Source of the DNA: a virus
Lineage: Duplodnaviria > Caudoviricetes
Virus record (IMG/VR): IMGVR_UViG_3300024268_000035
Location: 1-64,000 of that record
Direction: 5' to 3' (one strand)
Length of the DNA stretch: 64,000 nucleotides
The notes beneath the pieces are model-generated. The model was not told the DNA's origin. It did not search any database and was given only the letters and a program-made list of their open reading frames with translations. Below are positions 28,477-45,249 of this stretch, piece by piece (position 1 is the first letter of the stretch; each line of letters opens with the position of its first letter). The position numbers were made by a program, and so were the translations under genes.

Positions 28477-29412
28477 TCATTCTCCTTTTGTTTCAAAAAC
28501 AACATCCTTGGCATGAATATCTGCCAGATGCAGTTTCAGGATGTCAGTATACAATTCTTCGCCGACAAGTTTACGAAACTTAGAAACGGCTTTATCTGAT
28601 TCTGTGCGCTCCAACTCATACGGACGCATATGCCACTGAATCACTGCAGCGATATACACTCTGTCAAGTTCCGGATTTGCATAGAATAAGCTATCGTAAG
28701 CAGAAACGTGCTGGTGGTCATAATAATGAGCGACCTCTGTGGTTTCGCCCTTGGAGTTTACAAAAGATTTTGTAAATGGCTTCCCAATGTCGTGAAGAAC
28801 CGCTGCTTCCTGAAGAGTATCAGACTCATTATTGAGTAAATTGCGAGCTGCAAGACAATGATAACCTACTGTATGGATGTGATGTGGATTGTCATGACTG
28901 ATATATTTCAGACCAGAAATTCCGTCGAACAATTCGTTTGCATCTCTGGTTTTGAACCCTTCCGGATAAATCAGATCGACGTAATCCCACCCTTCGTATG
29001 TATTGGGAATCCATATGTTTCGGTACATTCGTTCCAGAACATCATAAGGAACTACACGCTTACGGTGCTTACTACGTTCTACGCACATATCAAACGGAGT
29101 TGCCATGAAAACACATACTTTTACGCATTCAATTTTGCGAAGACGCTGCAAGGTGTCCATCCGGCGTTTATAATTGATATTTGTTGCATCATAGACAACA
29201 TTTTTTCCGTTTATCAGATCGGAAATGATCCGTTCATGAAGTGTGTCAAACACCAGTGTATTGTTGCTCTGGTTTTCCATGTCGCCGAGAAGTTCAGCAC
29301 GAATATTATCACTGGAATGAATAACAGCATCGTAGGCTTCTTGGAGTTTTTCTGCCTGAAAAGACTTTCCGCTGTATGGTAAGCCTACAAGCATGAAAAA
29401 TATTGGTTTCAT
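28477..29412 (-). CDS. Polynucleotide kinase (P-loop) fused to an HD domain
   Basis: GLPYSGKS, DATN...RR, HDNPHH, LHDIGKP, HLAD. Confidence 0.85.
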   Translation of the reverse strand: MKPIFFMLVGLPYSGKSFQAEKLQEAYDAVIHSSDNIRAELLGDMENQSNNTLVFDTLHERIISDLINGKNVVYDATNINYKRRMDTLQRLRKIECVKVCVFMATPFDMCVERSKHRKRVVPYDVLERMYRNIWIPNTYEGWDYVDLIYPEGFKTRDANELFDGISGLKYISHDNPHHIHTVGYHCLAARNLLNNESDTLQEAAVLHDIGKPFTKSFVNSKGETTEVAHYYDHQHVSAYDSLFYANPELDRVYIAAVIQWHMRPYELERTESDKAVSKFRKLVGEELYTDILKLHLADIHAKDVVFETKGE

Positions 29413-30700: not shown

Positions 30701-32065
30701 TTACACAACCTCCTGAGCTTCTTCCAAATCAGGGCTGACAGCAGTATCTTTAACGATACCTTCCAGAACCTTGAATGAGAAGTTTTTGTGCTTATACGCT
30801 GTGAACTTAGGACGATTTACAATTCTGACTACAACACCTTCGCGTACATGATCCTTACCTACCGGATCTGCGCCGTCGTAATACTGTTCTGCAATGTTCT
30901 TCACACATTCTCCGACAGAACATTCTTTCGCTGTGCAGGTATCCGCATATGGACAATCCTCACCGCCGATATACCCCTTCCAGAATACGGGTACGGTTTT
31001 TACGCCCATCTGTTCGCAGCGATAGCGCATGAAATCAGGAGTGTATTCAACAACGTCGCCATCTTCGTTCGTCATTGTCATGCGATAAACATAGATATCG
31101 GACTGTGGATGTGTAGGCGCATAACAGTCCTCTGTGAAACCTGCGGGTTCACATCCATAACTGAATACTGTGGTTTGCCCATACTGCTTGATAAAGTCCT
31201 TGTTGTTTACCTTCTTATTATCACAGGAGGACATAATAGGAGTACCGTCCTGTGTGAACCCTACGACTTCATAATAGACAGTCTCGCCCTTATGAAGTTT
31301 TCCTTCAAAGAACTTGCTGTGTTGTTCACGGAATTCGTTACTTCCATAAAAACCGCCGTCGTAATTGTCCAGAACAACACGACGGGTTCCTGTTACATAA
31401 CCCCAGTTATATATCGGTGTACCGTGACGTTTTAAGAGCTTGTCCATGAGAGTTCTCTTGTACCCAGAGAGTGTGGGGAGATAACCTGTTCTCTGAGATG
31501 TTCCGTGCATTTTGAGAGTGATTTCAACCTGATCTCCGTTATGGAATGCGGAAAGATTGTAGGAAAGCTGTTCTGTATCAGCGTGTTCCATAAAGAGTGG
31601 AGCGACTGGATCTTTACGCTTACGAGTGCGATTACCAGACGGATACCCCCCCCTACTATCGCTACGCGGAATATACTTTTCACAGATTGTAATTCCGTTC
31701 AGAACCGTGATTGTGTCTCCTTCGCGGAGCGTAGAAATATCGGTGAAATCTTCCAATGATGACAGCGGCATAAACAAGCCGTCACTCTTTTCGCCACGAA
31801 GCGTCAGAGCTTTGATATTACGCTTTTCGGGATCCAAATATCCTCCGGCTGGCTTACCATTTTCATCCTTACGGCGGAGCAGGTCATGTTTCTGTGCAAA
31901 TTCAAGACCGAGTTTACCATCCACCGGGAAATACACACCAAGTTCGTCAGGCTTTGTGTTAAGCCCAACGATTACGGTGTTACCAAAGCATTCGCCGCAC
32001 AACAGTCTGTCAGCGTTGGAATGTTTTCTTACATTTTTAATTCTTGTGATAAAAGCTGAATACAA
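30701..32065 (-). CDS. ATP-dependent RNA ligase (DRB0094/Rnl-like) with N-terminal OB domain
   Basis: HSNADRL, LRGEKS.G, motif I TLKMHGTS, YYE, EGVV, KHK; in-frame G8 tract at 31646-31653. Confidence 0.85.
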   Translation of the reverse strand: MYSAFITRIKNVRKHSNADRLLCGECFGNTVIVGLNTKPDELGVYFPVDGKLGLEFAQKHDLLRRKDENGKPAGGYLDPEKRNIKALTLRGEKSDGLFMPLSSLEDFTDISTLREGDTITVLNGITICEKYIPRSDSRGGYPSGNRTRKRKDPVAPLFMEHADTEQLSYNLSAFHNGDQVEITLKMHGTSQRTGYLPTLSGYKRTLMDKLLKRHGTPIYNWGYVTGTRRVVLDNYDGGFYGSNEFREQHSKFFEGKLHKGETVYYEVVGFTQDGTPIMSSCDNKKVNNKDFIKQYGQTTVFSYGCEPAGFTEDCYAPTHPQSDIYVYRMTMTNEDGDVVEYTPDFMRYRCEQMGVKTVPVFWKGYIGGEDCPYADTCTAKECSVGECVKNIAEQYYDGADPVGKDHVREGVVVRIVNRPKFTAYKHKNFSFKVLEGIVKDTAVSPDLEEAQEVV

Positions 32066-32924: not shown

Positions 32925-32926
32925 AG

Positions 32927-33493: not shown

Positions 33494-33502
33494 TAAACCT
33501 CC

Positions 33503-34018: not shown

Positions 34019-34308
34019 GAGAGTCTCCTGTTAATCTTATAGCCAAGTTCCCTTGCTTTTCTGAGAGCAAGTTTGGCTTCATACAGTGAAAGTCCGATGG
34101 AGTTATTTAAGCCGGATTTGTTCAGCTCTTTTTCGTAAGAGTGGATCAGGTGTTTTCCACTTGATTTATGGGTGATTGCAAGCACCTGTGTATACCCATA
34201 TTTTGCATGATATTTTTCGTAGTAGGCTCCATATTGGTCTTCGCTTACTTTTACAAAGCTGAGTTCTTTCAGCTTTTCATCTGTACTTTTCCACAACATC
34301 TTTATCAC
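34015..34308 (-). CDS. Hypothetical protein within the cluster, lacking the leader
   Basis: Operonic ORF. Confidence 0.55.
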   Translation of the reverse strand: MIKMLWKSTDEKLKELSFVKVSEDQYGAYYEKYHAKYGYTQVLAITHKSSGKHLIHSYEKELNKSGLNNSIGLSLYEAKLALRKARELGYKINRRLS

Positions 34309-34314
34309 CTCAGA

Positions 34315-34734
34315 TCAGCCATTACGTCCTGCGCCACATTCACAGTAGGTTTCGGCAAAACCGTTTTCCTCTGTGATTTTGTCGATGATTGCGGATTCAT
34401 CGAAATCATCATAATACACACTGTAATCCGGATATCCATCGCCATCTTCATAGATTTCAAATCCACCTCTGATAACGATAAAGGAATCATCCATGTGTTT
34501 TTCGATATAGCTTCTTTCAGGCGTACAGTTTACACCAGCCCAGTAATATTCAAGCCAATCAGACCATTTACTGTCGCCGAGTGCCTCCAGAACTTCTCTG
34601 GCGGTATAGATTTCGATATCGTTCTTATGTTCATCAAGGATCGGCTGTGCTTTTTCGCGGTTTGCAATCCGGGCAAAACAGCAGATGAAGCTGCTTGATG
34701 AACTATTCGTAACAAAGTCTGTACGTATCTTCAT
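34315..34734 (-). CDS. TNSSSSS-leader protein 3
   Basis: MKIRTDFVTNSSSSSFIC. Confidence 0.85.
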   Translation of the reverse strand: MKIRTDFVTNSSSSSFICCFARIANREKAQPILDEHKNDIEIYTAREVLEALGDSKWSDWLEYYWAGVNCTPERSYIEKHMDDSFIVIRGGFEIYEDGDGYPDYSVYYDDFDESAIIDKITEENGFAETYCECGAGRNG

Positions 34735-34736
34735 GG

Positions 34737-35162
34737 TTATTCTCCGTCGTCGATAATGATAAAGTTTTCGTTTTTACTGCTTGCAATACGGATAAAATTA
34801 CGGAGTGACTGGTCGCAGTAGTCAATCCTTTTCTGAACAATGGAGTACCCTTTGTCCAAATATTCGAGAATCGTGTTATATTTGCTGAGATATCCATCGG
34901 ATTCGATGCTTTTTCTCATTTCTTCCACATTGCTGTAGCAGAAGTAGTCTGCAAACCATTTTTCAAAGTCTTCCTTTGTGTCAAACGCTTTCGCTTGGTT
35001 GGTTTCATCAGCACCTTCGCACAACATAAATGCGGCAAGCATTTTGTTAAAAGACTCCACAAAGGAACTAAGCGGATTGTCTGGGTCTGTTTTTACTGCT
35101 CTCGCAGCAATTACATAGCTCGAAGACGAGCTGTTGGTAACAAAATCCTGTCTGATTTTCAC
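34737..35162 (-). CDS. TNSSSSS-leader protein 2
   Basis: MKIRQDFVTNSSSSSYVI. Confidence 0.85.
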   Translation of the reverse strand: MKIRQDFVTNSSSSSYVIAARAVKTDPDNPLSSFVESFNKMLAAFMLCEGADETNQAKAFDTKEDFEKWFADYFCYSNVEEMRKSIESDGYLSKYNTILEYLDKGYSIVQKRIDYCDQSLRNFIRIASSKNENFIIIDDGE

Positions 35163-35519
35163 TTAATTTCCTCCGTCATAAATTTCTGTCATATATTCCT
35201 CTGGAATATTTCGATAAAGGAATGCGTCGTCGCCTTCTGTATCTCCGTCGTTTGTCCATGCGATAAACGAAGCAGTCAGGTAATATGTGTCATCTTCCAG
35301 TTCTTCCATAAACTCTTCATCAAGTTCGTTCGTAATCTGATGATATTCAGCGTTCTTAATTTCTGCGCCGGTTTCAAGCATTTCATTAAGAAGACGTTCG
35401 CCGAATCTTCCGAATTCCTCTTTCATGTATGTACGAAGCTCATCTGTAAGGTTTATCTTTGCAACACAGATATAACTGCTGGATGAGCTGTTCGTAACAA
35501 AGTCCTGTCTAATTTTCAT
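35163..35519 (-). CDS. TNSSSSS-leader protein 1
   Basis: MKIRQDFVTNSSSSSYIC. Confidence 0.85.
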   Translation of the reverse strand: MKIRQDFVTNSSSSSYICVAKINLTDELRTYMKEEFGRFGERLLNEMLETGAEIKNAEYHQITNELDEEFMEELEDDTYYLTASFIAWTNDGDTEGDDAFLYRNIPEEYMTEIYDGGN

Positions 35520-35529
35520 CCATTACGCC

Positions 35530-35790
35530 TCAATTCTTAATCAAAGCAATGTTGGATGAATGAACAAGGTAGGTCTTTCCGTCGATTACGACCTGAATCT
35601 GATCTCCGTCTTCAAAGTCTGTCCAAGATGAAACAGAACCATTGACAACCGATCCGTCCGGCAGTGAAATGATTGCAGTGTCGAAAGTGTATGTAAGATC
35701 GAATAACTGCTTGTTGCCCCATCCTAATAAAGAACACAGGATGAGAAATACCATTGCGGCTGCCAGAGCCAATGTGATGTACCTCTTCAT
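35530..35790 (-). CDS. Small exported phage protein
   Basis: Signal-like N-terminus; GNKQLFDLTYTF...DGDQIQV...YLVHSSN. Confidence 0.6.
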   Translation of the reverse strand: MKRYITLALAAAMVFLILCSLLGWGNKQLFDLTYTFDTAIISLPDGSVVNGSVSSWTDFEDGDQIQVVIDGKTYLVHSSNIALIKN

Positions 35791-35993
35791 TTCTTTTCCT
35801 CCATTTGATTCTGAAATGTGTTTTGGAAACGCTTTAACATTTCCTCATCTTCAATATAAAACGGGTCTTTCCCCATCTTATCGAATACGATAGTTATAAG
35901 CTGCCCAAACCGAAGATCGGGACAGCATTCCCAGATTTCTGCAAGTCGATTGCAAAACTTCCGGATTCTTTTAGGATCACGCATTACATCCAC
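35787..35993 (-). CDS. DUF1040-like small protein
   Basis: MRDPKRI...W...PDLRFGQL...DPFYIED. Confidence 0.6.
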   Translation of the reverse strand: MDVMRDPKRIRKFCNRLAEIWECCPDLRFGQLITIVFDKMGKDPFYIEDEEMLKRFQNTFQNQMEEKK

Positions 35994-36253
35994 CCCGGAA
36001 TTACATCGCCTTCGCCGATACCAATGTAAGCATTTAATACAGCTATAGCTTCTGGATTATAAATATACTTGGTTTTATCCAACAGCAAATCCCGTATCTG
36101 AGAGATTGTAAAATCGGGATGCTCTTCATGAATGATAACAAGGAAGTCATTTGTTGCTGTTGTAGAACCGGCGACCTTCCTGATTTTCTTTCCTTTGGGT
36201 CTTATATGCGGATAATAACTTATATCTGTGTGACCTTTAGGATATTTCGGCAT
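35984..36253 (-). CDS. Hypothetical protein
   Basis: Operonic ORF. Confidence 0.5.
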   Translation of the reverse strand: MPKYPKGHTDISYYPHIRPKGKKIRKVAGSTTATNDFLVIIHEEHPDFTISQIRDLLLDKTKYIYNPEAIAVLNAYIGIGEGDVIPGWM

Positions 36254-37329
36254 TACACAGTTTTCTCCGTACTGTCACAAATTACAATTTGAGGACGAAT
36301 CGGACATCCGCCCATACACGAAAGACGTTTACTACATCCGGGACAAGCTGTATGGAAGTGGTTGCGGAAGTCTTCAAACTGTTCGCTGTTCCATGCGTTC
36401 TGAATAGTATCATTGGAAATGTCGTATGCCCAGCGAAGTTCCTGATTGTCGAAGGAGCAGGGGAGAGCTTTCATATCGCTTGTGATATACATACTCCATC
36501 TGCCGACCTCACAGGTATCTACACTGTCGTTGTCGATATTTTCTGTGAAATTCAATACAGCCGGAATAGAGCAGGAGTCAAAGCCGATTTTGAAATTGAA
36601 CTGCTGTGTATCAACAATACTGAAAAACTCTTTTACTCTGGGATCATTGACCTTCAGCACGTTGGATTCGCTTCCAAGTCCAACCGGCTTGTGTAAAAGG
36701 AAGATAACAGCATTGATTCCTGTTGGGAAATCATTCGTTTTCAGACGGCGAATGGCTTCATCAATAGAATTGTCACCGAGAACATAGTGAACATTGGTTT
36801 TTACCCCGGCATCCAGAAGCATTTGAATAGCGCGGATGGTATGTTCCTGACGATACCACGAAATTGCAACGGCTCCGCAATATCTTTTACAGAGCTGCAC
36901 AATCTGGTCAGTGAAACCAAGACCGGAACTGGTAAAGTTGGGCACGATGTCGTTTTCGCGGCAGTATGCGAGGATTTCTTCAAAGTTTTCATGCTGATCC
37001 ACGTCGCCGCGTCCACCAAGAGCAAGCTGGAAGGTTTTGCCCTTGCATTCATCCACGATACGCTTGAAGTTTTCAAGTGTCATGTTAGGATGTTTTGTTT
37101 TTAAGCCGTTTTGGTAGCACTGAACACCGGATTTAATACAAAGTCCACTGGATCCGTGGACGCAGTGTCCCATAACACCTACGTCAATCAACTCCGGATA
37201 AGAAGTCATAAATGGATCTACACCGGTATCTTTGCCATCTTCATCGAGAATGCCGCTTCTTGCATAGAAACCAGTCTTCGGATTAAACATGGATACGAAG
37301 TGATTTCTGCGGTCAATTTTTGTAATCAT
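36253..37329 (-). CDS. Radical SAM enzyme with SPASM domain and non-canonical Cys spacing
   Basis: CVHGSSGLCIKSGVQCYQ (CX7CX6C), ALGGRGD, TCEVG...PCSF, CPGC...CMGGCP. Confidence 0.85.
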   Translation of the reverse strand: MITKIDRRNHFVSMFNPKTGFYARSGILDEDGKDTGVDPFMTSYPELIDVGVMGHCVHGSSGLCIKSGVQCYQNGLKTKHPNMTLENFKRIVDECKGKTFQLALGGRGDVDQHENFEEILAYCRENDIVPNFTSSGLGFTDQIVQLCKRYCGAVAISWYRQEHTIRAIQMLLDAGVKTNVHYVLGDNSIDEAIRRLKTNDFPTGINAVIFLLHKPVGLGSESNVLKVNDPRVKEFFSIVDTQQFNFKIGFDSCSIPAVLNFTENIDNDSVDTCEVGRWSMYITSDMKALPCSFDNQELRWAYDISNDTIQNAWNSEQFEDFRNHFHTACPGCSKRLSCMGGCPIRPQIVICDSTEKTV

Positions 37330-38071: not shown

Positions 38072-39622
38072 TTAGATATTCTTCAGAACCTCACCAATGG
38101 GAGCATAACGATCAGTGTTCAGAGTTTCCAGCAGACATTCATAAGGATCAGTTTTTCCACTCATAACAAGTTTTACGATGTTTGTGCTGAATCCGCTGAC
38201 AAGAGCAACGCCCATATCATTTTCAATAACAGGGATTGTTGCTGTACGACTATTTACATTCCAGAATACAAGGCGGGGGAGCTTGTAACCGGCATTTTCA
38301 TAACGCTGAGAAATAATCTCGAACAGACGAGCGTTGGGACGATTACGATTCCATCTGTCAGAGGATCTGCCGCAAGTAGCACAGCTATCAAATTCCATGT
38401 CGGAGATGATAAGGATATTCTGAGGAATATCTTCCTGTGCCATGTTGTTATGGACGGCTGTATCCAAAATCAGATCGAATACCGCTTCGATATTGGTGTT
38501 TGCAACTTCATTGTGTGCGAGAGCAATCTGAAGTTTGTCACGAAGGTTCTTGCCTCTGCTCAGATCTACCAATTTCGGAGATTCCGAGAAGGTAATGTAG
38601 TTGTTTTTGAACTGACCAGAAGATCTTTCGGCGAAATAGATTGCAAGTGCGTTGGCTACACTCAATGCGCTAACGCTGGATCCGCCAACGGTACTTGTCA
38701 TACTTCCACTTCCATCAGCGACAACGATAGTATTTCCGCAGCCTGCTACAGTATCGGGAAGGGAATCCCACATTGCTTCCAGTGCAGAATCAACGATACC
38801 CTTCACATTGTAGCTGTTCGACATATACTTATGTACAATATCGTGCGGATACAGTGTTCCGGCGTTGATTTTTGTTTCACCCTTTTCCAGTCTGGAAAGG
38901 TAATTGCGGCGACGTTCTTCATCGTTGCGAAGGAAGGCTGAATTGTAGATCAAGTTTGCACGGGAAGGAACAGTTTCATAAATGATTTCGTTCCAATGCT
39001 TTGCGGACATCTTCTTTTCCACCACATTCAGCTTGGTACGCAGTCTGGAAAGAGCTTTGCGATAGTCGCGTTCTGTAACCCCCATATGCTTATAAATAAG
39101 CTTTGCATAACGCTTGGTTTCCTTAGAAGAGGCGTTTACAGAAGGAAGCCACTTTGCCAGAAGGGAAATGCTGCCATTCTTTTTAAGATTCTGAATATCC
39201 TGTGTAAGCTGAACGGAAACAAGGTCAAGTACGTTTATCTGAAGGTTGGTATCCAGCAGACACCACAGATCATCATAACGTCCATATTCAGGAATCAGGT
39301 TCAGAAGGGGGATGATGTATTCCGGATTGTGTTCAGCCATATTGGAAAGGATGATTCTGAACAAACGACGTTCACCAAGACCACCACGGATATCTCTTGC
39401 GAAAAACAGCCACTTCATTGCTGTCACCTTGTCTTCAAAGAAAGCCTTAGTGAATCGTTTGGCAATATCGTCCGGGGATGCGGAACGAAGAGATGCAACG
39501 GCGAAGTTCAGATCCAACAGTTCTTTACCAGTGGTACGATATCCCATAGCACCATTTTCGGTCATAGAGTAATTGTTATCTGCGAGCATGGTTTTCTTCA
39601 TGTTTGAAACAAAGTTACTCAT
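38072..39622 (-). CDS. TROVE/Ro60-like helical protein with C-terminal vWA domain (DUF2828-like)
   Basis: TENGA, ARDIRGGLGER, YGRYDDL, AKWLPS, MIDAS DGSGS, ISDMEFD, VFWNV, VSGFS. Confidence 0.85.
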   Translation of the reverse strand: MSNFVSNMKKTMLADNNYSMTENGAMGYRTTGKELLDLNFAVASLRSASPDDIAKRFTKAFFEDKVTAMKWLFFARDIRGGLGERRLFRIILSNMAEHNPEYIIPLLNLIPEYGRYDDLWCLLDTNLQINVLDLVSVQLTQDIQNLKKNGSISLLAKWLPSVNASSKETKRYAKLIYKHMGVTERDYRKALSRLRTKLNVVEKKMSAKHWNEIIYETVPSRANLIYNSAFLRNDEERRRNYLSRLEKGETKINAGTLYPHDIVHKYMSNSYNVKGIVDSALEAMWDSLPDTVAGCGNTIVVADGSGSMTSTVGGSSVSALSVANALAIYFAERSSGQFKNNYITFSESPKLVDLSRGKNLRDKLQIALAHNEVANTNIEAVFDLILDTAVHNNMAQEDIPQNILIISDMEFDSCATCGRSSDRWNRNRPNARLFEIISQRYENAGYKLPRLVFWNVNSRTATIPVIENDMGVALVSGFSTNIVKLVMSGKTDPYECLLETLNTDRYAPIGEVLKNI

Positions 39623-39677
39623 TGTTTAATTCCTCCTTGGTTTGTTTAGTTAATTTCTAAAGTGTTTGTTTATCCTC

Positions 39678-39791
39678 AAGACACACAAAGAACGCGCAGA
39701 AGTGTGGAGTCGAACCATCATCACTGTTTTCAGTTGTCCTAAACCAATTAGACGAACCTCTGCTACTATGTAACATTGCTGATCGTGTCTT
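39678..39791 (-). ncRNA. Y-RNA-like element: terminal stem + TCAGCAAT enclosing a tRNA-like domain
   Basis: AAGACAC/GTGTCTT outer stem; inner GCAGAGG/CTTCTGC stem, TAATTGG D-like loop, GGTTCGACTCC T-loop. Confidence 0.65.
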
Positions 39792-39802
39792 TAAGGAGGG
39801 AA

Positions 39803-39915
39803 ACGGTGGGCAGGAATCGAACCTGCGCTTGCAGCTTGGATTTTTACATTGCTGTCAGTGAACCTTACGGATCACACGAAGGGGAGCCGCCGTCTTCCCG
39901 CTTGACTACCACCGT
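39803..39915 (-). ncRNA. tRNA-like RNA with the anticodon loop replaced by hairpin+ACAGCAAT
   Basis: ACGGTGG/CCACCGT acceptor, D-arm, GCGGCT/AGCTGC stem, GCAGG-TTCGATT-CCTGC. Confidence 0.7.
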
Positions 39916-39920
39916 ATGTG

Positions 39921-40037
39921 CGTCAGGGGTGGGACTCGAACCCACGACCTCGGGTTTAACAGACCTTGAATAAATTTGCTGTAAATGTCTCACACAAGAC
40001 ATATTATACGCGCTCTATCCAACTGAGCTACCCTGAC
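39921..40037 (-). ncRNA. tRNA-Asn(GTT)-like RNA interrupted by a 43-nt insert
   Basis: Removing 39966-40008 gives a complete cloverleaf with CGGGT-CTGTTAA-ACCCG. Confidence 0.75.
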
Positions 40038-40044
40038 ATTTGAC

Positions 40045-40115
40045 TCGTGCAACCGGAATCGAACCGATATTTACCAATCGCATCCACAGTGTACTTTTGC
40101 AGGTGTTACGCACGA
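40045..40115 (-). ncRNA. Degenerate tRNA-like element (acceptor + T arm) with a CCTGCAA variant motif
   Basis: TCGTGCG/TGCACGA, ATCGG-TTCGATT-CCGGT. Confidence 0.45.
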
Positions 40116-40238
40116 ATATTGAATCGGATTCATCGGTTTTTCCGAAATGCTGAAATCTGGCAAGTGAATTTCAAGCACGACCCTTATCCGATATGGGTCA
40201 GCAGAAAGGAGTTATATGAAGCGTATTATGTACGCTGA

Positions 40239-40357
40239 AGCGGAAGGAAGGAATCGAACCTTCGACACGTGAACCCATTTCAAAGAACATTGCTGTTAAT
40301 GTCAGCATACGCGACACCATATCTTTTTCATTGCTCTGCCGACTGAGCTACTTCCGC
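40239..40357 (-). ncRNA. tRNA-like RNA with an expanded anticodon loop carrying hairpin+ACAGCAAT
   Basis: GCGGAAG/CTTCCGC, GCTC-AGTCGGCA-GAGC, GAAGG-TTCGATT-CCTTC. Confidence 0.7.
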
Positions 40358-40374
40358 ATAATGACGGCTGATTG

Positions 40375-40488
40375 TGGGAACTGTGGAATCGAACCACAAG
40401 CATAAGATGTACCAGATCTCAAAGGTAAATTTGCTGTTAGTGTACGCCGTCCGTTACACTTTATAACGCTGCCTCCCAGACGTTCCCA
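40375..40488 (-). ncRNA. tRNA-like RNA (GGT anticodon arm) with hairpin+ACAGCAAAT inserted 5' of the anticodon arm
   Basis: TGGGAAC/GTTCCCA, GAGAT-CTGGTAC-ATCTT, TGTGG-TTCGATT-CCACA. Confidence 0.6.
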
Positions 40489-40495
40489 GAATAAA

Positions 40496-40578
40496 TGCCG
40501 GAGAAGGGACTTGAACCCATACGCGCTACGCGCATCAGGGCTTAAACCTGATGTGTCTGCCAATTACACCACACCGGC
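40496..40578 (-). tRNA. tRNA-Leu(TAA)
   Basis: Cloverleaf, TCAGG-TTTAAGC-CCTGA, long variable arm. Confidence 0.88.
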
Positions 40579-40583
40579 ATATC

Positions 40584-40725: not shown

Positions 40726-40749
40726 TTAAGTTTCCAAAGGAATACTTGA

Positions 40750-40837
40750 CGGAGCAGACAGGACTCGAACCTGCACATCCTTACGAATTACTGACGGTTT
40801 AGCAAACCGCTGCCTTACCAATTAGGCTTACTGCTCC
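40750..40837 (-). tRNA. tRNA-Ser(GCT)
   Basis: Cloverleaf, GCGGT-TTGCTAA-ACCGT, long variable arm. Confidence 0.9.
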
Positions 40838-40861
40838 ACATGAGAAGCAAAGCTTCTCTGT

Positions 40862-40920
40862 AAAACGCTTTCGATAATCAGTCGATGAATGGCGATTAGT
40901 GATATTGCTGTAAGCGTCTT
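40862..40920 (-). ncRNA. Minimal stem+ACAGCAAT unit
   Basis: AAGACGC-TT-ACAGCAAT...GCGTTTT. Confidence 0.6.
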
Positions 40921-40931
40921 TATTTTTTGTC

Positions 40932-40989
40932 ACGGCACATATACATTCATAACCCCAAATTATGCGTATCAAATTGCTGTAAGTGCCGT
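40932..40989 (-). ncRNA. Minimal stem+ACAGCAAT unit
   Basis: ACGGCAC-TT-ACAGCAAT...GTGCCGT. Confidence 0.6.
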
Positions 40990-41012: not shown

Positions 41013-42596
41013 TTAACCTTCCACAGTCTTAAAGAACACATCTGTACGGCGGTTCTTTTCACTGTCTTGTGCGGAAGGGTCTACGATCATTTTTGTATTG
41101 CCGTTACCAACAACGATAATACGATTTACATCAATGCCATTCGCCACGAAGAAATTCTTTACGGTCTTGGCACGTTCTTCGGAGAGCTTACGTCCGGCAT
41201 CAGTATCATCATAAGAATTGATGTTACCTTCGATCTGAATTACAGTGCCGTCCAGAGTTTTTGCGATTTCCACGAATTCACTGAGAGTTGCATTTGCTTC
41301 TGCATTGTCAAGGAACTTTGCGGTATTGATGACAAAGTTTACGGTTGCAGACTTGGAAAGCAGTGCCTGTGCATTCTTAATGGATTCCTTCTGTTCTTCT
41401 GTGATCTCAAAGGCTTCCTTCTCTGTGATAGAAGAATAATTATCGGAAAGCGTCTTGATATAGGAAGTATCGAACAGGGTTGCTCCAAGGGTTCTGTCTA
41501 CAGTTTCACCGATGCTTTCCCAGATGGTACACATATCAGCATAAACAGTGGGGCAGTCATTTTCCAGAGCGGAGAGATTTTCTGAATATCCCATCAGACC
41601 GGCATCGCCGCACATGGAGAGGATTTCTTCATCAGAAGAGTCAGCGAACATGGGCATAACCTTACGGATGTATTCAAACTCAGTGGTGTACATATCTTCG
41701 GCTTGGAAGATACCATCAATAAACTTGGACACTACATCCGGATGTGCCGATGCGAAATCGGAACGGAAGAGGATACCGTCCATGATGAGTTTGTTGGAAG
41801 CGGTAGTGTCAAACAAAATGTGAGAATTGGTACTGTTTTCGGCGTTGGAAAGATACGGCTGCCATGTTGCTGCAACATCAAGGCTTCCGGCAAAGAACGC
41901 CTGACCAGTTTGTTCTGCGTCTTCCAGCAGAATAAGGTTGTCGATGATCTTCTGCTTATCTGCGTCGGGGAGGTCTGATTTATTGACAAACCAGATAACA
42001 AGAGACTGGGCTTCACTGAATTTGGGAACACCAATCTTGGCATCTACGAGACTTTCGATGGATTTGAACTTGCTGAGTGCGATGATGCCATCACCACCGT
42101 CAGAGAAGTTAGTGTACACAGGAATTACTACATCCAAACCGGCATCGGTGAACTTTCCGGAAAGGAATGCTGTACGGTTGAGAGTATATCCGGCTGCGTT
42201 AAGATCACCCTTAATCAGCGCATTACTGGATGCTTCTGCATCGTTGATAATATTGATATTGACGGTGATTCCAAGTTTATCAAAAATGGAACCGGGCTGA
42301 GTGGTCAAACCACCATTTGCGTCGATGATCGGCTTCCAACCAATCCATTCATCCAGTGAAAGATTGATAGTCGGATCTGCGGTATCCGTCTTGTTTACTG
42401 CGGGAGTGTTTGAAGTCTTATTGTCAGTATCGGATGTGCCGATAATGGAGTCCAATGTATCGCTTCCGAAACTGGGGATAAGATCGGGCTTATGTTCTTC
42501 AATGTAGCGATAGCCGAAGAATCCGGCGACACAGAGAATAGCGATGATGATTACGAACAGGACGACGCGACCAGCGGTGGTCAACTTGAGTTTCAT
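41013..42596 (-). CDS. Membrane-anchored ABC substrate-binding protein (NMT1/SsuA-like) with C-terminal OmpA-like domain
   Basis: TM helix, SDGGDGI, ATWQPY, LSEERAKTV, NRRTD. Confidence 0.85.
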   Translation of the reverse strand: MKLKLTTAGRVVLFVIIIAILCVAGFFGYRYIEEHKPDLIPSFGSDTLDSIIGTSDTDNKTSNTPAVNKTDTADPTINLSLDEWIGWKPIIDANGGLTTQPGSIFDKLGITVNINIINDAEASSNALIKGDLNAAGYTLNRTAFLSGKFTDAGLDVVIPVYTNFSDGGDGIIALSKFKSIESLVDAKIGVPKFSEAQSLVIWFVNKSDLPDADKQKIIDNLILLEDAEQTGQAFFAGSLDVAATWQPYLSNAENSTNSHILFDTTASNKLIMDGILFRSDFASAHPDVVSKFIDGIFQAEDMYTTEFEYIRKVMPMFADSSDEEILSMCGDAGLMGYSENLSALENDCPTVYADMCTIWESIGETVDRTLGATLFDTSYIKTLSDNYSSITEKEAFEITEEQKESIKNAQALLSKSATVNFVINTAKFLDNAEANATLSEFVEIAKTLDGTVIQIEGNINSYDDTDAGRKLSEERAKTVKNFFVANGIDVNRIIVVGNGNTKMIVDPSAQDSEKNRRTDVFFKTVEG

Positions 42597-43342
42597 TACT
42601 TAGATCCTCCATATTTCTTTTTGAGATTTTCAAGATATTCGTCATTGGCGAGTTTGGCTGCTTGCTGTTCGGCGCGTTCCACCTTGGTGGAGGTACGGTT
42701 TTCATGAACAATCCGTGCGCCGTCCACTTCCTTCTTCAAGTCACTGGAACCTTCCATGACGGAATCCAGAAGTTTCTTGGTGGCTGTATCCTTTTTGAGT
42801 TCATCCAGATCTCCGAGGATGTCTTTGAGCTGGTCGTTCATACGCATTCCGTTGACGGTTTCTTTCTTGAGACGCTGAGTTTCACGAAGTTTCTTGCCGA
42901 GTGTGTCGTATATCTGCGTAGCATCAGCTACCATCGGCTTCAGACGAGCGATACACTCCCTCTTTTGTGCGAGTTCCGTCATGAGTTCTGAACGGCTTTC
43001 AGCATAGATTTCAGCTTCCTTCATCTTGCCGTTCCTTACAAGGTTTTCACAAGCGGCTTCCGCTTCCTTGATTTTGTTTTCAAGAATTTTGGCGGCATCT
43101 TCCGCGTGTTTCAATTCTCCTGAAAGTTTGTTTAATGTATCGGAAGCGCGGTTGTATTTTGCGCGAATTTCTTCGATTGCTTCACTAAAGATTGCCGCCG
43201 CGCCTTCAGGAGTTTTGGCGGCATCTTCAACGAAAACATTCAGAAATCCGCTGACAAGTACCTTTAACTTCTTGCGGACTTCCGGGAAGAGAATAAGAGC
43301 GAGAAGGATAATAGCAAGGATAATTCCGAGAATGATTTTCAC
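42596..43342 (-). CDS. PspA/IM30-like coiled-coil protein with N-terminal TM segment
   Basis: Hydrophobic N-terminus, long heptad region. Confidence 0.65.
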   Translation of the reverse strand: MKIILGIILAIILLALILFPEVRKKLKVLVSGFLNVFVEDAAKTPEGAAAIFSEAIEEIRAKYNRASDTLNKLSGELKHAEDAAKILENKIKEAEAACENLVRNGKMKEAEIYAESRSELMTELAQKRECIARLKPMVADATQIYDTLGKKLRETQRLKKETVNGMRMNDQLKDILGDLDELKKDTATKKLLDSVMEGSSDLKKEVDGARIVHENRTSTKVERAEQQAAKLANDEYLENLKKKYGGSK

Positions 43343-43932
43343 TTGGATTCCTCCATTCCTTTACAGAATTCTATGAGATTTGTGATGGACTTTACCTCAT
43401 CTGTAATAGAGGACTGAGCGGCAGAAATGATATCTTCTGCTTCCTTGATCTTGATGTTGGCAGATTCGATTGCCTGTTTCAGTGCTTCAATATCCATCTT
43501 GGCGATTTCGATTTCTGCTGTACGTTCTCTGGTAATCTTAGATTCTGCAGCTTTCAGCATCGACATTCTGGTATCACCATCAGAAAGCAGTGTTTCTACC
43601 TTGATACCAGACACCGCCAGAATTCCGGCGATAGTAGCCTGTTTTGTTGCCGTAGGCATTTCCGGCGGGAGCGTTGCGATAAGAGCCTGTACGGTAAAGA
43701 TAGAATTTGTCTTATCTGACAGGTCATTTTGATCGTAGATTTCGTCGATAATATTTGCAGGAGACTCGATATCCGCATCAACTGCAATCGGGACTTCTTC
43801 TGTCGGTTCTTCCTGTACGGGAACAGGTACGGTAGTCTCCGCTTTATCGTCTTCAAATACGATAAGCTTCTTTAATAATCCCATTTTCTTTCCTTTCCTT
43901 TCCTTTATGAGAGCTTGATTATATGTTCGCAC
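43339..43932 (-). CDS. Coiled-coil hypothetical protein
   Basis: Operonic ORF, likely start at MGLLKK. Confidence 0.55.
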   Translation of the reverse strand: MRTYNQALIKERKGKKMGLLKKLIVFEDDKAETTVPVPVQEEPTEEVPIAVDADIESPANIIDEIYDQNDLSDKTNSIFTVQALIATLPPEMPTATKQATIAGILAVSGIKVETLLSDGDTRMSMLKAAESKITRERTAEIEIAKMDIEALKQAIESANIKIKEAEDIISAAQSSITDEVKSITNLIEFCKGMEESK

Positions 43933-44492
43933 ATCCTCACAGCTTCCTCTTCGCTGTGTGTTACCATGAGGATTGTGTTTGCGGTTTCATGATGGACTTC
44001 CATGATAAGGTTCTGCATCTTTGTTCTGGTTACATCATCCAGTGCGGAAAGCGGTTCGTCCATCAGCAGGTATGTAGGCTTGACAAACAGGACTCTGGCA
44101 AGAGCCAATCTTTGCTGCATACCGCCGGAGAGTTCCGTTGGATATCGATCAAGATAATCACCAAGACCAACTTCTTGCAGGATTCGCTCTGCTGTTGGAA
44201 CAAGTGACTTGCGTTTGCTGCGAGTTCTTTCAGCAATCAGGATGTTGTCTCTGCAGGAAAGCCAATCGAAATTGGTGTATCTCTGGTGCATCATATAGAT
44301 AAGCTGTCTGTCTTTTCTGATGATTTCGCCTGAGAGTGGTTTATGCAGTCCAGCAATGGTTTTCAGCAATGTGCTTTTTCCACAGCCAGATTTTCCGAGT
44401 ATTCCGTAAATCTTCCCATTCTCAAATGTGAAATTCAACGGATCGGTGAGAGGGTGATCGTACCCAACCGATAGATTATTCAATGTTATCAT
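43905..44492 (-). CDS. ABC transporter ATPase (TauB/SsuB-like)
   Basis: GKSGCGKST, LSGGMQQR, LLMDEP, VTH. Confidence 0.93.
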   Translation of the reverse strand: MITLNNLSVGYDHPLTDPLNFTFENGKIYGILGKSGCGKSTLLKTIAGLHKPLSGEIIRKDRQLIYMMHQRYTNFDWLSCRDNILIAERTRSKRKSLVPTAERILQEVGLGDYLDRYPTELSGGMQQRLALARVLFVKPTYLLMDEPLSALDDVTRTKMQNLIMEVHHETANTILMVTHSEEEAVRMCEHIIKLS

Positions 44493-45249
44493 CTTTGTAT
44501 CTCCACTGAAATGTTTTCCGGATCAGCATCTTTCCGATACGATCAAACAGATAACTGAACACCACAATCGTGAGGATTGCTGCAAACACAATGGCGGTTT
44601 TACCTCTGGCGGCTCCTACATTGATGATGAAGCCAAGACCTTTTATGGCGTTCACTTCTTCCACAACAGCAACATACGTCCATCCGATTCCATACATCAT
44701 CAGGAACGAATTCATAATAGAGGGCAGTGCGGCTGGCAAAAGAATTTCTGCAATAATTTCATGTGGTCGCATTCCGATTGACTTCCCGGTATCAATCAGA
44801 TCCTGCGGCACATCTTCCATGCACAGTATGGTTGATGGGAGAAGATACACAAAGGTTGCAAGGAACAGAAACGAAATTTTCATAGTCTCATCTATTCCAA
44901 ACCACAGGATCAGAAGGGGCGAAAATGCTGTAACTGGAATGTACCTCATTGCAGATACGATTGGTGTGATCGCATCTTTAACAGGTTTTACTGCACAAAT
45001 CAGTAATGCAAGGGGAATTGCTACTGCCATCGACAGAATGGCGGACACAGATATACGAGCGAAAGAGTAAAGCAAACCGGGAAGTAGTTGATTGGTTTTA
45101 ATAAGTCCAACCAATGCAGATACAACGGATAACGGGGAGGGGATAAAGAGCGGCGTTGTCATGGCGGATCCAATCTGCCATATTATCAGAAGAATAATAA
45201 CTCCCATTGTTTTCTTCAAGATATTGCAGCCGCTTTTACCGCCGAGCAT
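44476..45249 (-). CDS. ABC transporter permease (TauC/SsuC-like)
   Basis: Multiple TM helices, RYIP, LWFGIDE, GWTYVAVVE. Confidence 0.9.
   Translation of the reverse strand: MLGGKSGCNILKKTMGVIILLIIWQIGSAMTTPLFIPSPLSVVSALVGLIKTNQLLPGLLYSFARISVSAILSMAVAIPLALLICAVKPVKDAITPIVSAMRYIPVTAFSPLLILWFGIDETMKISFLFLATFVYLLPSTILCMEDVPQDLIDTGKSIGMRPHEIIAEILLPAALPSIMNSFLMMYGIGWTYVAVVEEVNAIKGLGFIINVGAARGKTAIVFAAILTIVVFSYLFDRIGKMLIRKTFQWRYKDDNIE

What the first reader, a model, noticed from the sequence alone, without database searches (positions are those of the whole stretch)
39921..40037. Complete tRNA-Asn(GTT) cloverleaf split by a 43-nt intron-like insert in the anticodon stem
Seen: deleting 39966-40008 yields GTCAGGG TA GCTC AGTTGGATA GAGC G CGGGT CTGTTAA ACCCG AGGTC GTGGG TTCGAGT CCCAC CCCTGAC G, a fully paired cloverleaf with a G discriminator. 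The insert lies between the 2nd and 3rd bases of the anticodon stem and consists essentially of the hairpin+ACAGCAA module. It is far too short for a group I or II intron. Inference: either a protein-spliced tRNA intron (the window encodes a kinase-HD protein and an RNA ligase) or a tRNA carrying a protein-docking appendage. The 40375 element similarly keeps a GGT anticodon arm behind the insert.
Basis: partly seen in the sequence, partly recalled or inferred. Interest (0 to 1): 0.78.

Follow-up and report, generated by a model that had tools for sequence, protein, structure and literature searches.

The report
tRNA-shaped partner RNA of phage Ro60-like protein
The "split tRNA-Asn" is real, but it is most likely not a tRNA with an intron: it looks like one of a family of tRNA-shaped small RNAs carrying a conserved "helix + ACAGCAA" tag, encoded next to a phage Ro60-like RNA-binding protein, and this protein-RNA system appears undescribed.

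Summary
Window 40037..39921 is a full tRNA cloverleaf (Rfam tRNA 45.3 bits). Its anticodon stem is interrupted after base pair 2 by 43 nt (40008..39966), made of an A-rich linker, a 6-bp hairpin and ACAGCAA.

The intron reading is not supported.
- The same module sits in neighbouring tRNA-like genes at positions that cannot be spliced into a normal anticodon loop.
- It also occurs as free-standing stem-loops.
- It lies next to the same protein family in Listeria, E. coli, Mycobacterium and Enterococcus phages.
- That protein (Pfam DUF2828/DUF7788/vWA) has a predicted fold that matches Ro60/TROVE structures.
- Metatranscriptome contigs carry the unspliced form. No splicing endonuclease gene was found.

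An ortholog of this element occurs in 82 of 89 related sources, with strong covariation. In 55 distinct orthologs U33, A37 and A38 are invariant, while positions 34 and 35 take nine different anticodons, even between copies 98-99% identical.

Best reading: a Y-RNA-like tRNA mimic that docks the Ro60-like protein through the module and displays an anticodon loop, possibly as bait for anticodon nucleases.

First-stage notes of this scan flag the same system in at least 11 other genomes. I found no paper describing it.

The parts
39921..40037 (-). Type A tRNA-scaffold RNA, the finding itself: a complete cloverleaf whose anticodon stem is interrupted by the module; displays an Asn-type loop CUGUUAA
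   Evidence: Rfam tRNA 45.3 bits; model R1 124 bits; covariation on 55 orthologs
39966..40008 (-). 43-nt insert: A-rich linker, hairpin (40002-39997 with 39990-39985), TT, ACAGCAA (39982-39976), U-rich linker
   Evidence: Sequence; hairpin pairs covary (helices 4 and 5); ACAGCAA nearly invariant
39951..39965 (-). Distal 3 bp of the anticodon stem, the 7-nt loop (anticodon GTT 39960-39958) and the 3' strand of the stem
   Evidence: All 3 distal pairs covary, 97.6% paired; U33, A37, A38 invariant in 55/55, positions 34/35 variable
40239..40357 (-). Type B tRNA-scaffold RNA (Pro-like body): 5-bp anticodon stem, with the module replacing the 5' part of the loop
   Evidence: Rfam tRNA 46.9 bits with a 53-nt insertion; orthologs with covarying stems
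39802..39915 (-). Type C tRNA-scaffold RNA (Gly-like body): module inside the anticodon loop, whose 3' end reads AATCCAA (position 33 is A)
   Evidence: Rfam tRNA 44.6 bits; orthologs
40375..40487 (-). tRNA-like RNA without a D arm: acceptor, module (ACAGCAA 40437-40431), 5-bp anticodon arm with GGT (40420-40404), T arm
   Evidence: R1 38.2 bits; sequence
39678..39792 (-). Element with YrlA-like topology: closing stem AAGACAC (39791-39785) with GTGTCTT (39684-39678), TCAGCAA (39782-39776), tRNA-like body inside
   Evidence: Sequence; read by eye, not modelled
40042..40110 (-). Short tRNA-like element (7-bp acceptor, T arm) with a CAC-CTGCAA variant of the motif
   Evidence: Sequence; T loop found; read by eye
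40862..40989 (-). Two free-standing modules. The first is ACGGCAC-TT-ACAGCAA...GTGCCGT (40989-40932). The second is AAAGACGC-TT-ACAGCAA...GCGTTTT (40921-40862), with an inner TCGA-CTGATTA-TCGA hairpin.
   Evidence: Sequence
38072..39622 (-). Ro60-like protein, 516 aa (DUF2828 + DUF7788 + vWA), immediately downstream of the RNA array
   Evidence: Pfam; PHROG 850 'RNA-binding protein', E 2.6e-140; AlphaFold2 model with Foldseek top 13 hits all Ro60/TROVE
40495..40579 (-). Canonical tRNA-Leu(TAA) within the array
   Evidence: ARAGORN and Rfam
40748..40838 (-). Canonical tRNA-Ser(GCT) within the array
   Evidence: ARAGORN and Rfam
28477..29412 (-). Polynucleotide-kinase-like P-loop domain fused to an HD phosphohydrolase (RNA end healing)
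   Evidence: Pfam AAA_33 6e-16 and HD 2.7e-5
30701..32065 (-). ATP-dependent RNA ligase
   Evidence: PHROG 968 'RNA ligase' 1.8e-64; Pfam RNA_ligase 26.8 bits, just under its 27-bit cut-off

Best explanation
The element is a stable, unspliced, tRNA-shaped non-coding RNA. It is one of at least seven RNAs in a head-to-tail array that RNase P and RNase Z would release like tRNAs.

The 43-nt insert is a functional module, not an intron. The module is a short helix flanked 5' by an A-rich strand and 3' by NN-ACAGCAA. It is the family-specific docking site for the Ro60-like ring protein encoded directly downstream, in the way that Y RNAs dock Ro60.

The intact acceptor, D and T arms keep the L-shaped tRNA body, so tRNA-handling enzymes can recognise it. 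The module projects from the anticodon stem, the same place where the Ro60-binding stem leaves the tRNA-like domain of bacterial YrlA.

Beyond the module the RNA still presents a canonical 7-nt anticodon loop. Its positions 34 and 35 change quickly between related phages.

The most likely use of that loop is as bait or decoy for host enzymes that read anticodon loops, such as anticodon nucleases. This would work together with the RNA-healing and sealing enzymes that these phages encode.

Shown here:
- the structure and its covariation
- the linkage of the module to the protein family
- the predicted Ro60-like fold
- the variability of the anticodon
- the presence of the unspliced form in RNA libraries

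Inferred:
- physical binding of the protein to the module
- processing of the array by RNase P and RNase Z
- the decoy role
For: 1. Structure. On 55 distinct orthologs 96.6% of cells are paired, against at most 48.7% in slid controls. Twenty-one of 28 pairs change on both sides, including the insert hairpin and the distal anticodon stem. The tRNA elbow residues (T8, A14, G18G19, GTTC.A) are invariant or nearly so.

2. The module is a unit of its own. It occupies the anticodon stem (type A), the anticodon loop (types B and C) and the D-arm position (40375 element). It also forms free stem-closed loops in this window and in the phage's main tRNA array at genome 85564, 86225 and 87557.

3. Linkage to the protein.
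- Sense-strand ACAGCAA runs at 2.7 per kb in the 2 kb upstream of the gene, against 0.13 per kb elsewhere, in 73 loci. Only 7 antisense copies occur in the same 2-kb regions.
- The protein occurs in 701 cultured-phage records.
- In all four records inspected, ACAGCAA modules with covarying closing stems lie within about 1 kb of the gene: 3 in Listeria phage List-36, 4 in Escherichia phage skuden, 3 in Mycobacterium phage Halena and 1 in Enterococcus phage VRE9_2.

4. The protein is Ro60-like. The 13 best Foldseek matches in the PDB are all Ro60/TROVE chains aligned over the full length. The best is Thermus phage phiLo Ro60 (9kop), E 1.5e-7.

5. Bridge to YrlA. In Halena, the RNA that follows a GCAGCAA module matches Rfam YrlA over the whole model at 39.8 bits, E 1.7e-7 for the 401-nt stretch searched (1.3e-5 in the 30-kb search), below the 69-bit threshold. 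It has the T arm, closed acceptor and D arm in YrlA order.

6. Not an ordinary tRNA-Asn.
- Nine anticodons occur among the 55 orthologs: GTT 31, TGT 9, TTT 6, GCT 3, TGA 2, and GGT, ATT, TCT, TAT once each.
- Switches occur between copies 98-99% identical elsewhere (TGT/TGA, GTT/TCT).
- All four discriminator bases occur with GTT.
- The phage has a canonical tRNA-Asn(GTT) at genome 85733-85809.

7. Anticodon display is general. Among 410 distinct ACAGCAA contexts, 128 have a stem of at least 5 bp with a 7-nt loop (U at loop position 2, a purine at position 6, T loops excluded) within 45 nt downstream. The upstream control gives 10 and shuffles give 21 +/- 4.

8. Unspliced RNA. Metatranscriptome contigs of two runs of one study cover 39500-40107 (depth 11) and 39808-40134 (depth 13.5) without a gap.

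9. Repair context. PNK-HD and RNA ligase genes lie in the same transcriptional direction. In List-36 an HD phosphohydrolase and an annotated 'tRNA splicing ligase' lie beside the gene.
Against: - No binding data exist. The protein-module pairing rests on genomic linkage and a medium-quality model (pLDDT 68.8, TM about 0.45).
- The RNA evidence comes from assembled contigs of RNA libraries. These may contain DNA, they drop rare variants, and they capture mature tRNAs poorly. A spliced minority form is therefore not excluded.
- Type A is the one class whose precise excision would give a perfect tRNA, and its loop keeps U33, U36, A37 and A38. That is also what a decoding tRNA would keep.
- The phage does encode the healing and sealing half of a protein-splicing pathway.
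- The decoy role is inference only. No anticodon nuclease or host is known for this phage.
Confidence: 0.68

Rival explanations
1. It is a genuine tRNA-Asn gene with a new kind of protein-spliced intron. An endonuclease cuts at G29|U and A|G, the PNK-HD enzyme heals the ends and the RNA ligase seals them. The Ro60-like protein would act as a splicing chaperone that recognises the ACAGCAA module.
For: - Precise removal of 39966-40008 gives a perfect cloverleaf with a canonical loop.
- The distal stem and the loop residues U33, U36, A37 and A38 are conserved.
- The phage encodes a kinase-HD protein and an RNA ligase.
- The 5' junction G|UA is conserved.
Against: - The same module in types B and C cannot be excised to give a canonical loop; type C always has A at position 33.
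- The module also occurs free-standing, without exons, including in distant phages.
- No splicing endonuclease (PF01974) and no RtcB were found in the record, which is 76% complete.
- No spliced joint appears in the RNA contigs, while the unspliced form is assembled at depth 11-13.
- The anticodon and the discriminator vary in ways unlike a decoding ortholog. GCT and TGA (Ser) anticodons sit on a body without the long variable arm.
- A canonical tRNA-Asn is already present.
- No insert-less allele exists among 2.9 million viral contigs.
Confidence: 0.1
2. It is a working tRNA that decodes Asn codons without splicing, and the module is an extra arm tolerated by the ribosome.
For: All tRNA identity-neutral core features and a canonical anticodon loop are kept.
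Against: - A 43-nt branch leaves the anticodon stem between pairs 28:42 and 29:41. From established knowledge of tRNA-ribosome contacts, that region is packed against the small ribosomal subunit in the A and P sites, so a clash is expected. This is inference, not a test.
- The anticodon and discriminator are unstable.
- Types B and C lack any anticodon loop.
Confidence: 0.04
3. The module is a processing or cleavage signal. The RNAs are precursors that are cut at or near ACAGCAA into tRNA halves or small regulatory RNAs, and the Ro60-like ring threads the new 3' end.
For: - Ro60 is known to thread single-stranded 3' ends through its central hole (established knowledge; see structure titles 2i91 and 9nep).
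- The motif is single-stranded and sequence-conserved.
- Repair enzymes are linked to the locus.
Against: RNA contigs run through the motif uninterrupted. There is no evidence of ends at the motif, although contigs cannot show ends.
Confidence: 0.12
4. The insert is a selfish mini-element that has invaded tRNA genes, and the interrupted genes are decaying pseudo-tRNAs.
For: The module is found at several different positions in different tRNA bodies.
Against: - Position and structure are kept in 82 of 89 related sources, whose partner proteins are 53-79% identical to the window's protein.
- Compensatory changes occur in every helix, which would not happen in decaying genes.
- The module is strictly strand-specific and linked to one protein gene.
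- The 17 canonical tRNA genes of the main array are uninterrupted; the ACAGCAA modules found there lie in the gaps between them.
Confidence: 0.04

Closest known systems
Bacterial and phage YrlA Y RNAs with Ro60/Rsr (Rfam RF02553; Chen et al. 2014, PMC4201824; Thermus phage phiLo Ro60 with Yrl1/Yrl2, PMC12135203)
   Same: - Small RNAs lie on the same strand and within a few kb of a ring-shaped Ro60-type protein gene.
- The RNA combines a protein-binding stem carrying a short conserved single-stranded motif with a tRNA-like domain (T arm, D arm, acceptor).
- The binding module leaves the tRNA body at the anticodon-stem position.
- There is genomic linkage to RNA repair enzymes.
- One module RNA of Mycobacterium phage Halena scores 39.8 bits against the YrlA model.
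   Different: - The motif is helix + NN-ACAGCAA with an A-rich 5' flank, not GNCGAAN0-1G.
- Window hits to the YrlA model reach at most 17.8 bits against a threshold of 69.
- Type A is a complete, unpermuted tRNA with open acceptor ends, and it retains a canonical anticodon loop.
- There are many paralogous RNAs per phage: at least 7 here, plus at least 3 in the main tRNA array.
- The protein belongs to Pfam DUF2828/DUF7788, not TROVE (PF05731). It was therefore outside the set of genomes searched by Chen et al.
Intron-containing tRNA genes (archaeal/eukaryal bulge-helix-bulge introns; bacterial group I introns in tRNA anticodon loops)
   Same: An intervening sequence lies in the anticodon arm, and its exact removal restores a cloverleaf.
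   Different: - At 43 nt there is no group I fold and no Rfam intron hit.
- The position is inside the stem, between 28 and 29.
- No bulge-helix-bulge motif is evident and no endonuclease gene was found.
- The same sequence occurs without exons, and in places where excision cannot restore a tRNA.
Phage tRNAs that counter anticodon nucleases (T5 tRNA-Lys against PARIS, summarised in PMC11455837; van den Berg et al. 2023, PMC10264068) and T4 Pnk/Rnl1 tRNA repair
   Same: - Phage-encoded tRNA-type molecules whose anticodon-loop region evolves under host-defence pressure.
- Co-occurrence with RNA end-healing and sealing enzymes.
   Different: Those are normal decoding tRNAs with point changes. Here the molecule carries a 43-nt protein-docking module and its anticodon identity is unstable. 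No defence system has been tied to it.

Membership tests
tRNA (Rfam RF00005) | Cloverleaf with 7-bp acceptor, D arm, T arm with GTTCRA loop, scoring above the gathering threshold | tested here: met
   45.3 bits against 29; the elbow residues are conserved in orthologs
tRNA (Rfam RF00005) | Contiguous 5-bp anticodon stem closing a 7-nt loop in the gene product | tested here: not met
   The stem is interrupted by 43 nt after pair 2. Only the unspliced form is seen in RNA-library contigs.
tRNA (Rfam RF00005) | Stable anticodon and aminoacylation identity among orthologs; charging and decoding | tested here: not met
   Nine anticodons occur among 55 orthologs, with switches at 98-99% identity, and all four discriminator bases occur with GTT. 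Charging itself cannot be tested with these tools.
Protein-spliced tRNA intron (bulge-helix-bulge type) | Splice sites in two 3-nt bulges separated by a 4-bp helix | tested here: inconclusive
   Neither the consensus structure nor the minimum-energy fold shows such a motif. No dedicated bulge-helix-bulge scan was run.
Protein-spliced tRNA intron (bulge-helix-bulge type) | A splicing endonuclease (EndA/Sen, PF01974) available to the genome | tested here: not met
   No match in the 101.5-kb record, while the control search matched 6 of 14 control genomes, among them all four archaeal ones. The record is 76% complete and the host genome is unknown.
Protein-spliced tRNA intron (bulge-helix-bulge type) | Spliced junction present in RNA | tested here: inconclusive
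   No 40009->39965 joint appears in 4 runs. The joints listed there carry foreign anticodon arms. Contigs cannot prove absence.
Group I intron in tRNA | Catalytic core of about 200 nt or more (P3-P9), inserted in the anticodon loop | tested here: not met
   The insert is 43 nt and lies in the stem. No Rfam intron family hit even at E <= 10.
YrlA Y RNA (Rfam RF02553) | Score at or above the 69-bit gathering threshold | tested here: not met
   Window hits are 16-17.8 bits and straddle neighbouring genes. The Halena relative scores 39.8 bits.
YrlA Y RNA (Rfam RF02553) | GNCGAAN0-1G motif in the Ro60-binding stem (PMC4201824) | tested here: not met
   The conserved motif here is ACAGCAA
YrlA Y RNA (Rfam RF02553) | tRNA-like domain; encoded within 4 kb of, and on the same strand as, the Ro60 gene | tested here: met
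   with the caveat that the protein is Ro60-like by predicted fold only
Ro60/TROVE protein (for the partner, 38072-39622) | Pfam TROVE (PF05731) match | tested here: not met
   Pfam reports DUF7788, DUF2828 and VWA_2 only. phmmer against PDB sequences finds nothing.
Ro60/TROVE protein (for the partner, 38072-39622) | Helical-repeat ring closed by a vWA domain (Ro60 fold) | tested here: met
   The top 13 Foldseek hits are all Ro60 chains aligned over 506-578 columns, E 1.5e-7 to 4e-3, TM 0.34-0.49. The model is of medium quality.
Ro60/TROVE protein (for the partner, 38072-39622) | Binds its neighbouring small RNAs | not testable with these tools
   Needs RNA immunoprecipitation or gel-shift assays

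The most novel reading that the evidence does not exclude
A very widespread phage Ro60-like protein family (DUF2828) is present in Felixounavirus phages (E. coli, Salmonella), Listeria Pecentumvirus (P100-related), Campylobacter, Vibrio, Staphylococcus, Enterococcus and Mycobacterium phages. It would assemble with a so far undescribed class of 'ACAGCAA-tagged' RNAs. The tRNA-scaffold members would act as programmable anticodon-loop baits. Positions 34 and 35 evolve rapidly to match whichever host anticodon nuclease or other anticodon reader the phage faces. The RNP would sequester the enzyme, or capture the cut bait and hand it to the phage's healing and sealing enzymes. That would make it an RNA-based counter-defence organised by a Y-RNA-like particle.
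Probability: 0.3. Interest if true: 0.9.

Novelty: new variant of a known kind. Interest (0 to 1): 0.76.

Why it matters
Ro60 and its Y RNAs are known from animals, about 5% of bacteria and a few phages, and their bacterial function is still only partly understood.

This work points to a second, much larger phage branch. The protein is found in 701 cultured-phage records. It comes with its own RNA signature, helix + ACAGCAA, in place of the known GNCGAA motif. That makes the partner RNAs easy to find and the pairing directly testable in well-studied phage-host pairs such as Felix O1-like phages (genus Felixounavirus), Listeria phages related to P100 (genus Pecentumvirus), and cluster L mycobacteriophages.

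The tRNA-embedded members add something not seen in YrlA: a real anticodon loop with fast-changing positions 34 and 35. This links Ro60-type particles to the current question of how phages cope with tRNA-cutting defences.

For annotation, these genes should not be called intron-containing tRNAs or pseudo-tRNAs. Several short 'hypothetical protein' ORFs laid over them in public records are probably spurious.

Tried and rejected
- blastn of the 1.2-kb RNA array against cultured phages found only the canonical tRNA-Ser, so there is no close cultured relative.
- phmmer of the protein against PDB sequences found nothing. Only the fold comparison showed the Ro60 likeness.
- The single-sequence minimum-energy fold of the 117-nt RNA gives a non-cloverleaf structure. 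This is usual for tRNAs, so I disregarded it in favour of the covariation.
- ARAGORN's intron parses (Arg-tct, Ile-aat, Gly-ccc) conflict with the covariation and were rejected. Its relaxed mode gives 206 mostly spurious calls.
- The weak YrlA hits in the window span the T arm of one gene and the D arm of the next. They are artefacts of tandem tRNA-like genes.
- The joints 39948->40004, 39950->40011 and 39827->40011 carry unrelated anticodon arms between the two sides. They come from foreign tRNAs, not from splicing.
- Coverage of run X20 confined to 39770-40147 could hint at a stable small RNA, but contig depth cannot rank expression, so I did not use it as evidence.
- A search for an insert-less allele of the type A anticodon arm in 2.9 million viral contigs found none.
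- I considered pairing between the A/U-rich flanks of the insert, and a pseudoknot between the hairpin loop (UUGU) and GCAA. Neither is supported consistently across orthologs.
- Literature searches for DUF2828, ACAGCAA, 'Ro-like RNA binding protein', and phage tRNA decoys found no description of these RNAs.
Full report
**What is there.**
The window is the first 64 kb of a 101.5-kb IMG/VR viral record. All genes around the finding run on the minus strand.

Read on that strand, 40037..39921 is a textbook cloverleaf:
- a 7-bp acceptor
- D arm GCTC/GAGC with an AGTTGGATA loop
- a T arm with GTTCGAG
- discriminator G

The anticodon stem is broken after its second pair by 43 nt (40008..39966). After this insert the sequence resumes with GGT-CTGTTAA-ACC-CG.

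Rfam's tRNA model scores the interval at 45.3 bits with the insertion placed in the anticodon arm.

**The neighbourhood.**
The element is not alone. On the same strand, between 40990 and 39678, lie:
- two canonical tRNAs, Ser-GCT and Leu-TAA
- at least seven RNAs that carry a short helix followed by two nucleotides and (A/T)CAGCAA

Two of these also pass the Rfam tRNA threshold, with long insertions: 40239-40357 and 39802-39915.

Directly downstream is a 516-aa protein (38072-39622) with Pfam DUF2828, DUF7788 and a weak vWA match. PHROGs label it 'RNA-binding protein'.

An AlphaFold2 model built on 11 homologs (pLDDT 68.8) was compared with the PDB. The 13 best Foldseek matches are all Ro60/TROVE chains aligned end to end. 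The best is the Ro60 of Thermus phage phiLo.

Further along the same strand are a kinase-HD fusion (28477-29412) and an RNA ligase (30701-32065).

**Relatives.**
The protein retrieved 18 and then 80 loci from viral contigs, out of 269 confirmed matches. All show clusters of sense-strand ACAGCAA and T loops in the 2 kb upstream of the gene.
- Density is 2.7 per kb there against 0.13 per kb in the rest of the loci.
- Only 7 antisense copies occur in the same regions.

The Rfam tRNA model finds many 'long tRNAs' of 111-123 nt in these loci. They fall into three orthologous classes:
- Type A (the finding): the module sits in the 5' strand of the anticodon stem, and a 3-bp distal stem plus a 7-nt loop are kept.
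- Type B (Pro-like body): a covarying 5-bp anticodon stem encloses the module plus a 3' remnant such as TGGGA.
- Type C (Gly-like body): the same arrangement, ending in AATCCAA or AAGCCAA.

**Structure test.**
A covariance model built from 11 type A sequences found a type A ortholog scoring at least 76 bits in 82 of 89 sources.

On 55 distinct orthologs (alignment A4):
- 96.6% of cells form standard pairs, against at most 48.7% when partners are slid by one to three columns.
- 21 of 28 pairs show changes on both sides.
- The insert hairpin and all three distal anticodon-stem pairs covary (GGT/ACC, GGA/TCC, GCT/AGC, AGA/TCT, TGC/GCA and others).

The RNA, insert included, is therefore under selection for this fold.

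**Why it is probably not an intron.**
1. In type C, position 33 is A in every ortholog. In type B it is A in about half of them. No excision can turn these into normal anticodon loops, yet they carry the same module in the same array.
2. The module exists without any exons. There are two stem-closed copies at 40989-40862, and three more between canonical tRNAs in the phage's main tRNA array, at genome 85564, 86225 and 87557.
3. The protein occurs in 701 cultured-phage records. In all four that I opened, covarying stems followed by NN-ACAGCAA lie within about 1 kb of the gene:
   - List-36: AGGAATC...GATTCCT
   - skuden: AGACCA/TGGTCT, changing to AGACCG/CGGTCT in another copy
   - Halena: TGAGCGC/GCGCTCA
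   - VRE9_2: AAGAATCT/AGATTCTT

   In each case an A-rich run precedes the 3' strand. The hairpin form in types A-C is the same motif circularly permuted: A-rich strand, helix, NN-ACAGCAA. The conserved UAAUAA at the '5' splice site' of type A is thus simply the A-rich flank of the module.
4. Neither a splicing endonuclease (PF01974) nor RtcB was found in the record.
5. In two metatranscriptome runs of one study, contigs run straight through the element: 39500-40107 at depth 11 and 39808-40134 at depth 13.5. None of the four runs laid shows a 40009->39965 joint. This is weak evidence. Contigs may derive from DNA and they miss rare forms. But it points the same way.
6. No insert-less version of this anticodon arm exists in the viral collection.

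**Why it is probably not an ordinary tRNA-Asn either.**
- The phage already has a canonical tRNA-Asn(GTT) at 85733-85809, among 17 normal tRNAs and a tmRNA. That gene matches the 'spliced' type A at only 56 of 77 positions.
- Among the 55 orthologs, loop positions 33, 37 and 38 are invariant (U, A, A) and position 36 is U in 53. Positions 34 and 35 vary. Nine triplets occur: GTT 31, TGT 9, TTT 6, GCT 3, TGA 2, and GGT, ATT, TCT and TAT once each.
- Copies that are 98-99% identical elsewhere differ in the anticodon, for example TGT against TGA and GTT against TCT.
- Ser-type anticodons sit on a body without a long variable arm.
- All four discriminator bases accompany GTT.

This pattern fits a displayed, fast-evolving loop better than a decoding tRNA with a fixed aminoacylation identity.

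The display seems general. Within 45 nt downstream of 410 distinct ACAGCAA sites, 128 have a stem of at least 5 bp closing a 7-nt loop of anticodon type, with T loops excluded. The upstream control gives 10 and shuffles give 21 +/- 4. The loops are recognisable anticodon loops such as CTGCAAA, CTTGAAA, CTTTTAA, CTGTTAA, TTTGGGT and CTCATAA.

**Relation to known systems.**
The closest known system is Ro60 with YrlA-type Y RNAs. These are tRNA-like RNAs encoded beside the protein gene, with a binding stem marked by GNCGAAN0-1G (PMC4201824). A phage example was characterised structurally in 2025 (PMC12135203).

The present RNAs fail the YrlA membership tests:
- Window hits reach at most 17.8 bits against the 69-bit threshold.
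- The motif is different.

They are built on the same plan, however. One Halena RNA following GCAGCAA matches the whole YrlA model at 39.8 bits, with T arm, closed acceptor and D arm in YrlA order. Window element 39792-39678 has the YrlA topology too: a closing stem plus TCAGCAA around a tRNA-like body.

Chen et al. searched only genomes annotated with a TROVE domain, which excludes this protein family.

I found no paper describing RNA partners of DUF2828 proteins or the ACAGCAA motif. First-stage notes of this scan flag the same system in at least 11 other genomes, and one earlier follow-up covers an Enterococcus phage. Those are unverified AI notes, not independent evidence.

**Mechanism proposed.**
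Step 1, inferred from the array layout: the array is transcribed with the protein gene and cut into units by RNase P and RNase Z.

Step 2, inferred from linkage, predicted fold and analogy: the Ro60-like ring binds the helix with its A-rich and ACAGCAA flanks.

Step 3, shown as conservation only: the tRNA body and the anticodon loop remain exposed.

Step 4, speculative: the loop engages host anticodon-reading enzymes, most plausibly anticodon nucleases, and the particle cooperates with the phage's end-healing and ligation enzymes.

My confidence that the insert is a functional protein-docking module of an unspliced Y-RNA-like molecule is about 0.68. For the bait or decoy role it is about 0.3.

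**Verdict.**
Of the two readings offered, the 'protein-docking appendage' half is supported and the 'intron' half is not.

It is a new variant of a known kind, the Ro60/Y-RNA type RNP. It has a distinct RNA signature, a tRNA-embedded form and a hypervariable anticodon display.

Noticed in passing
L099:1468-2019 (Listeria phage List-36, NC_024364.1 102304-102855): Near-threshold match to ROOL RNA (RF03087): 91.5 bits against a gathering score of 99.1, E 1.7e-17. It lies about 1 kb upstream of the Ro60-like gene, between tRNAs and the ACAGCAA modules.
   Followed up: no
L101:4544-4652 (Mycobacterium phage Halena): Sub-threshold, full-length match to Rfam YrlA (39.8 bits, threshold 69), directly after a GCAGCAA module and just downstream of the 'Ro-like RNA binding protein' gene. 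It links the ACAGCAA RNAs to YrlA architecture.
   Followed up: partly
G000:C1:83339-88438 (same phage, outside the window): Main array of 17 canonical tRNAs plus a tmRNA (85059-85467). Three or more free-standing ACAGCAA modules lie in the gaps between tRNAs (85564, 86225, 87557; an ACTGCAA variant near 85640).
   Followed up: partly
window 39678-39792 (-): Closing stem AAGACAC/GTGTCTT plus TCAGCAA enclosing a tRNA-like body whose anticodon arm is reduced to ACTG-AAAA-CAGT. This is the YrlA-like topology, and its 3' strand lies just upstream of the protein's ribosome-binding site.
   Followed up: partly
L088:2963-3080: This type A ortholog appears to have an 8-nt anticodon-type loop (GGA-CTTTTTAA-TCC) instead of 7 nt.
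   Followed up: no
L100:5355-5585 (skuden_68) and L102:2856-2972 (VRE9_2 CDS0134): Short annotated 'hypothetical protein' ORFs overlap ACAGCAA module RNAs and are probably spurious gene calls.
   Followed up: no
window 32131-37329 (-): A radical SAM/SPASM enzyme (36253-37329) is followed by a run of small ORFs.
   Followed up: no
window 41013-45249 (-): Phage-borne ABC transporter genes (permease, ATPase) and a substrate-binding-like protein fused to an OmpA domain lie immediately upstream of the RNA array.
   Followed up: no
window 39770-40147: In RNA run X20 only this part of the 1.6-kb stretch, plus the tRNA-Ser region, is covered by contigs. That could reflect stable small RNAs, but contig data cannot establish it.
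   Followed up: no
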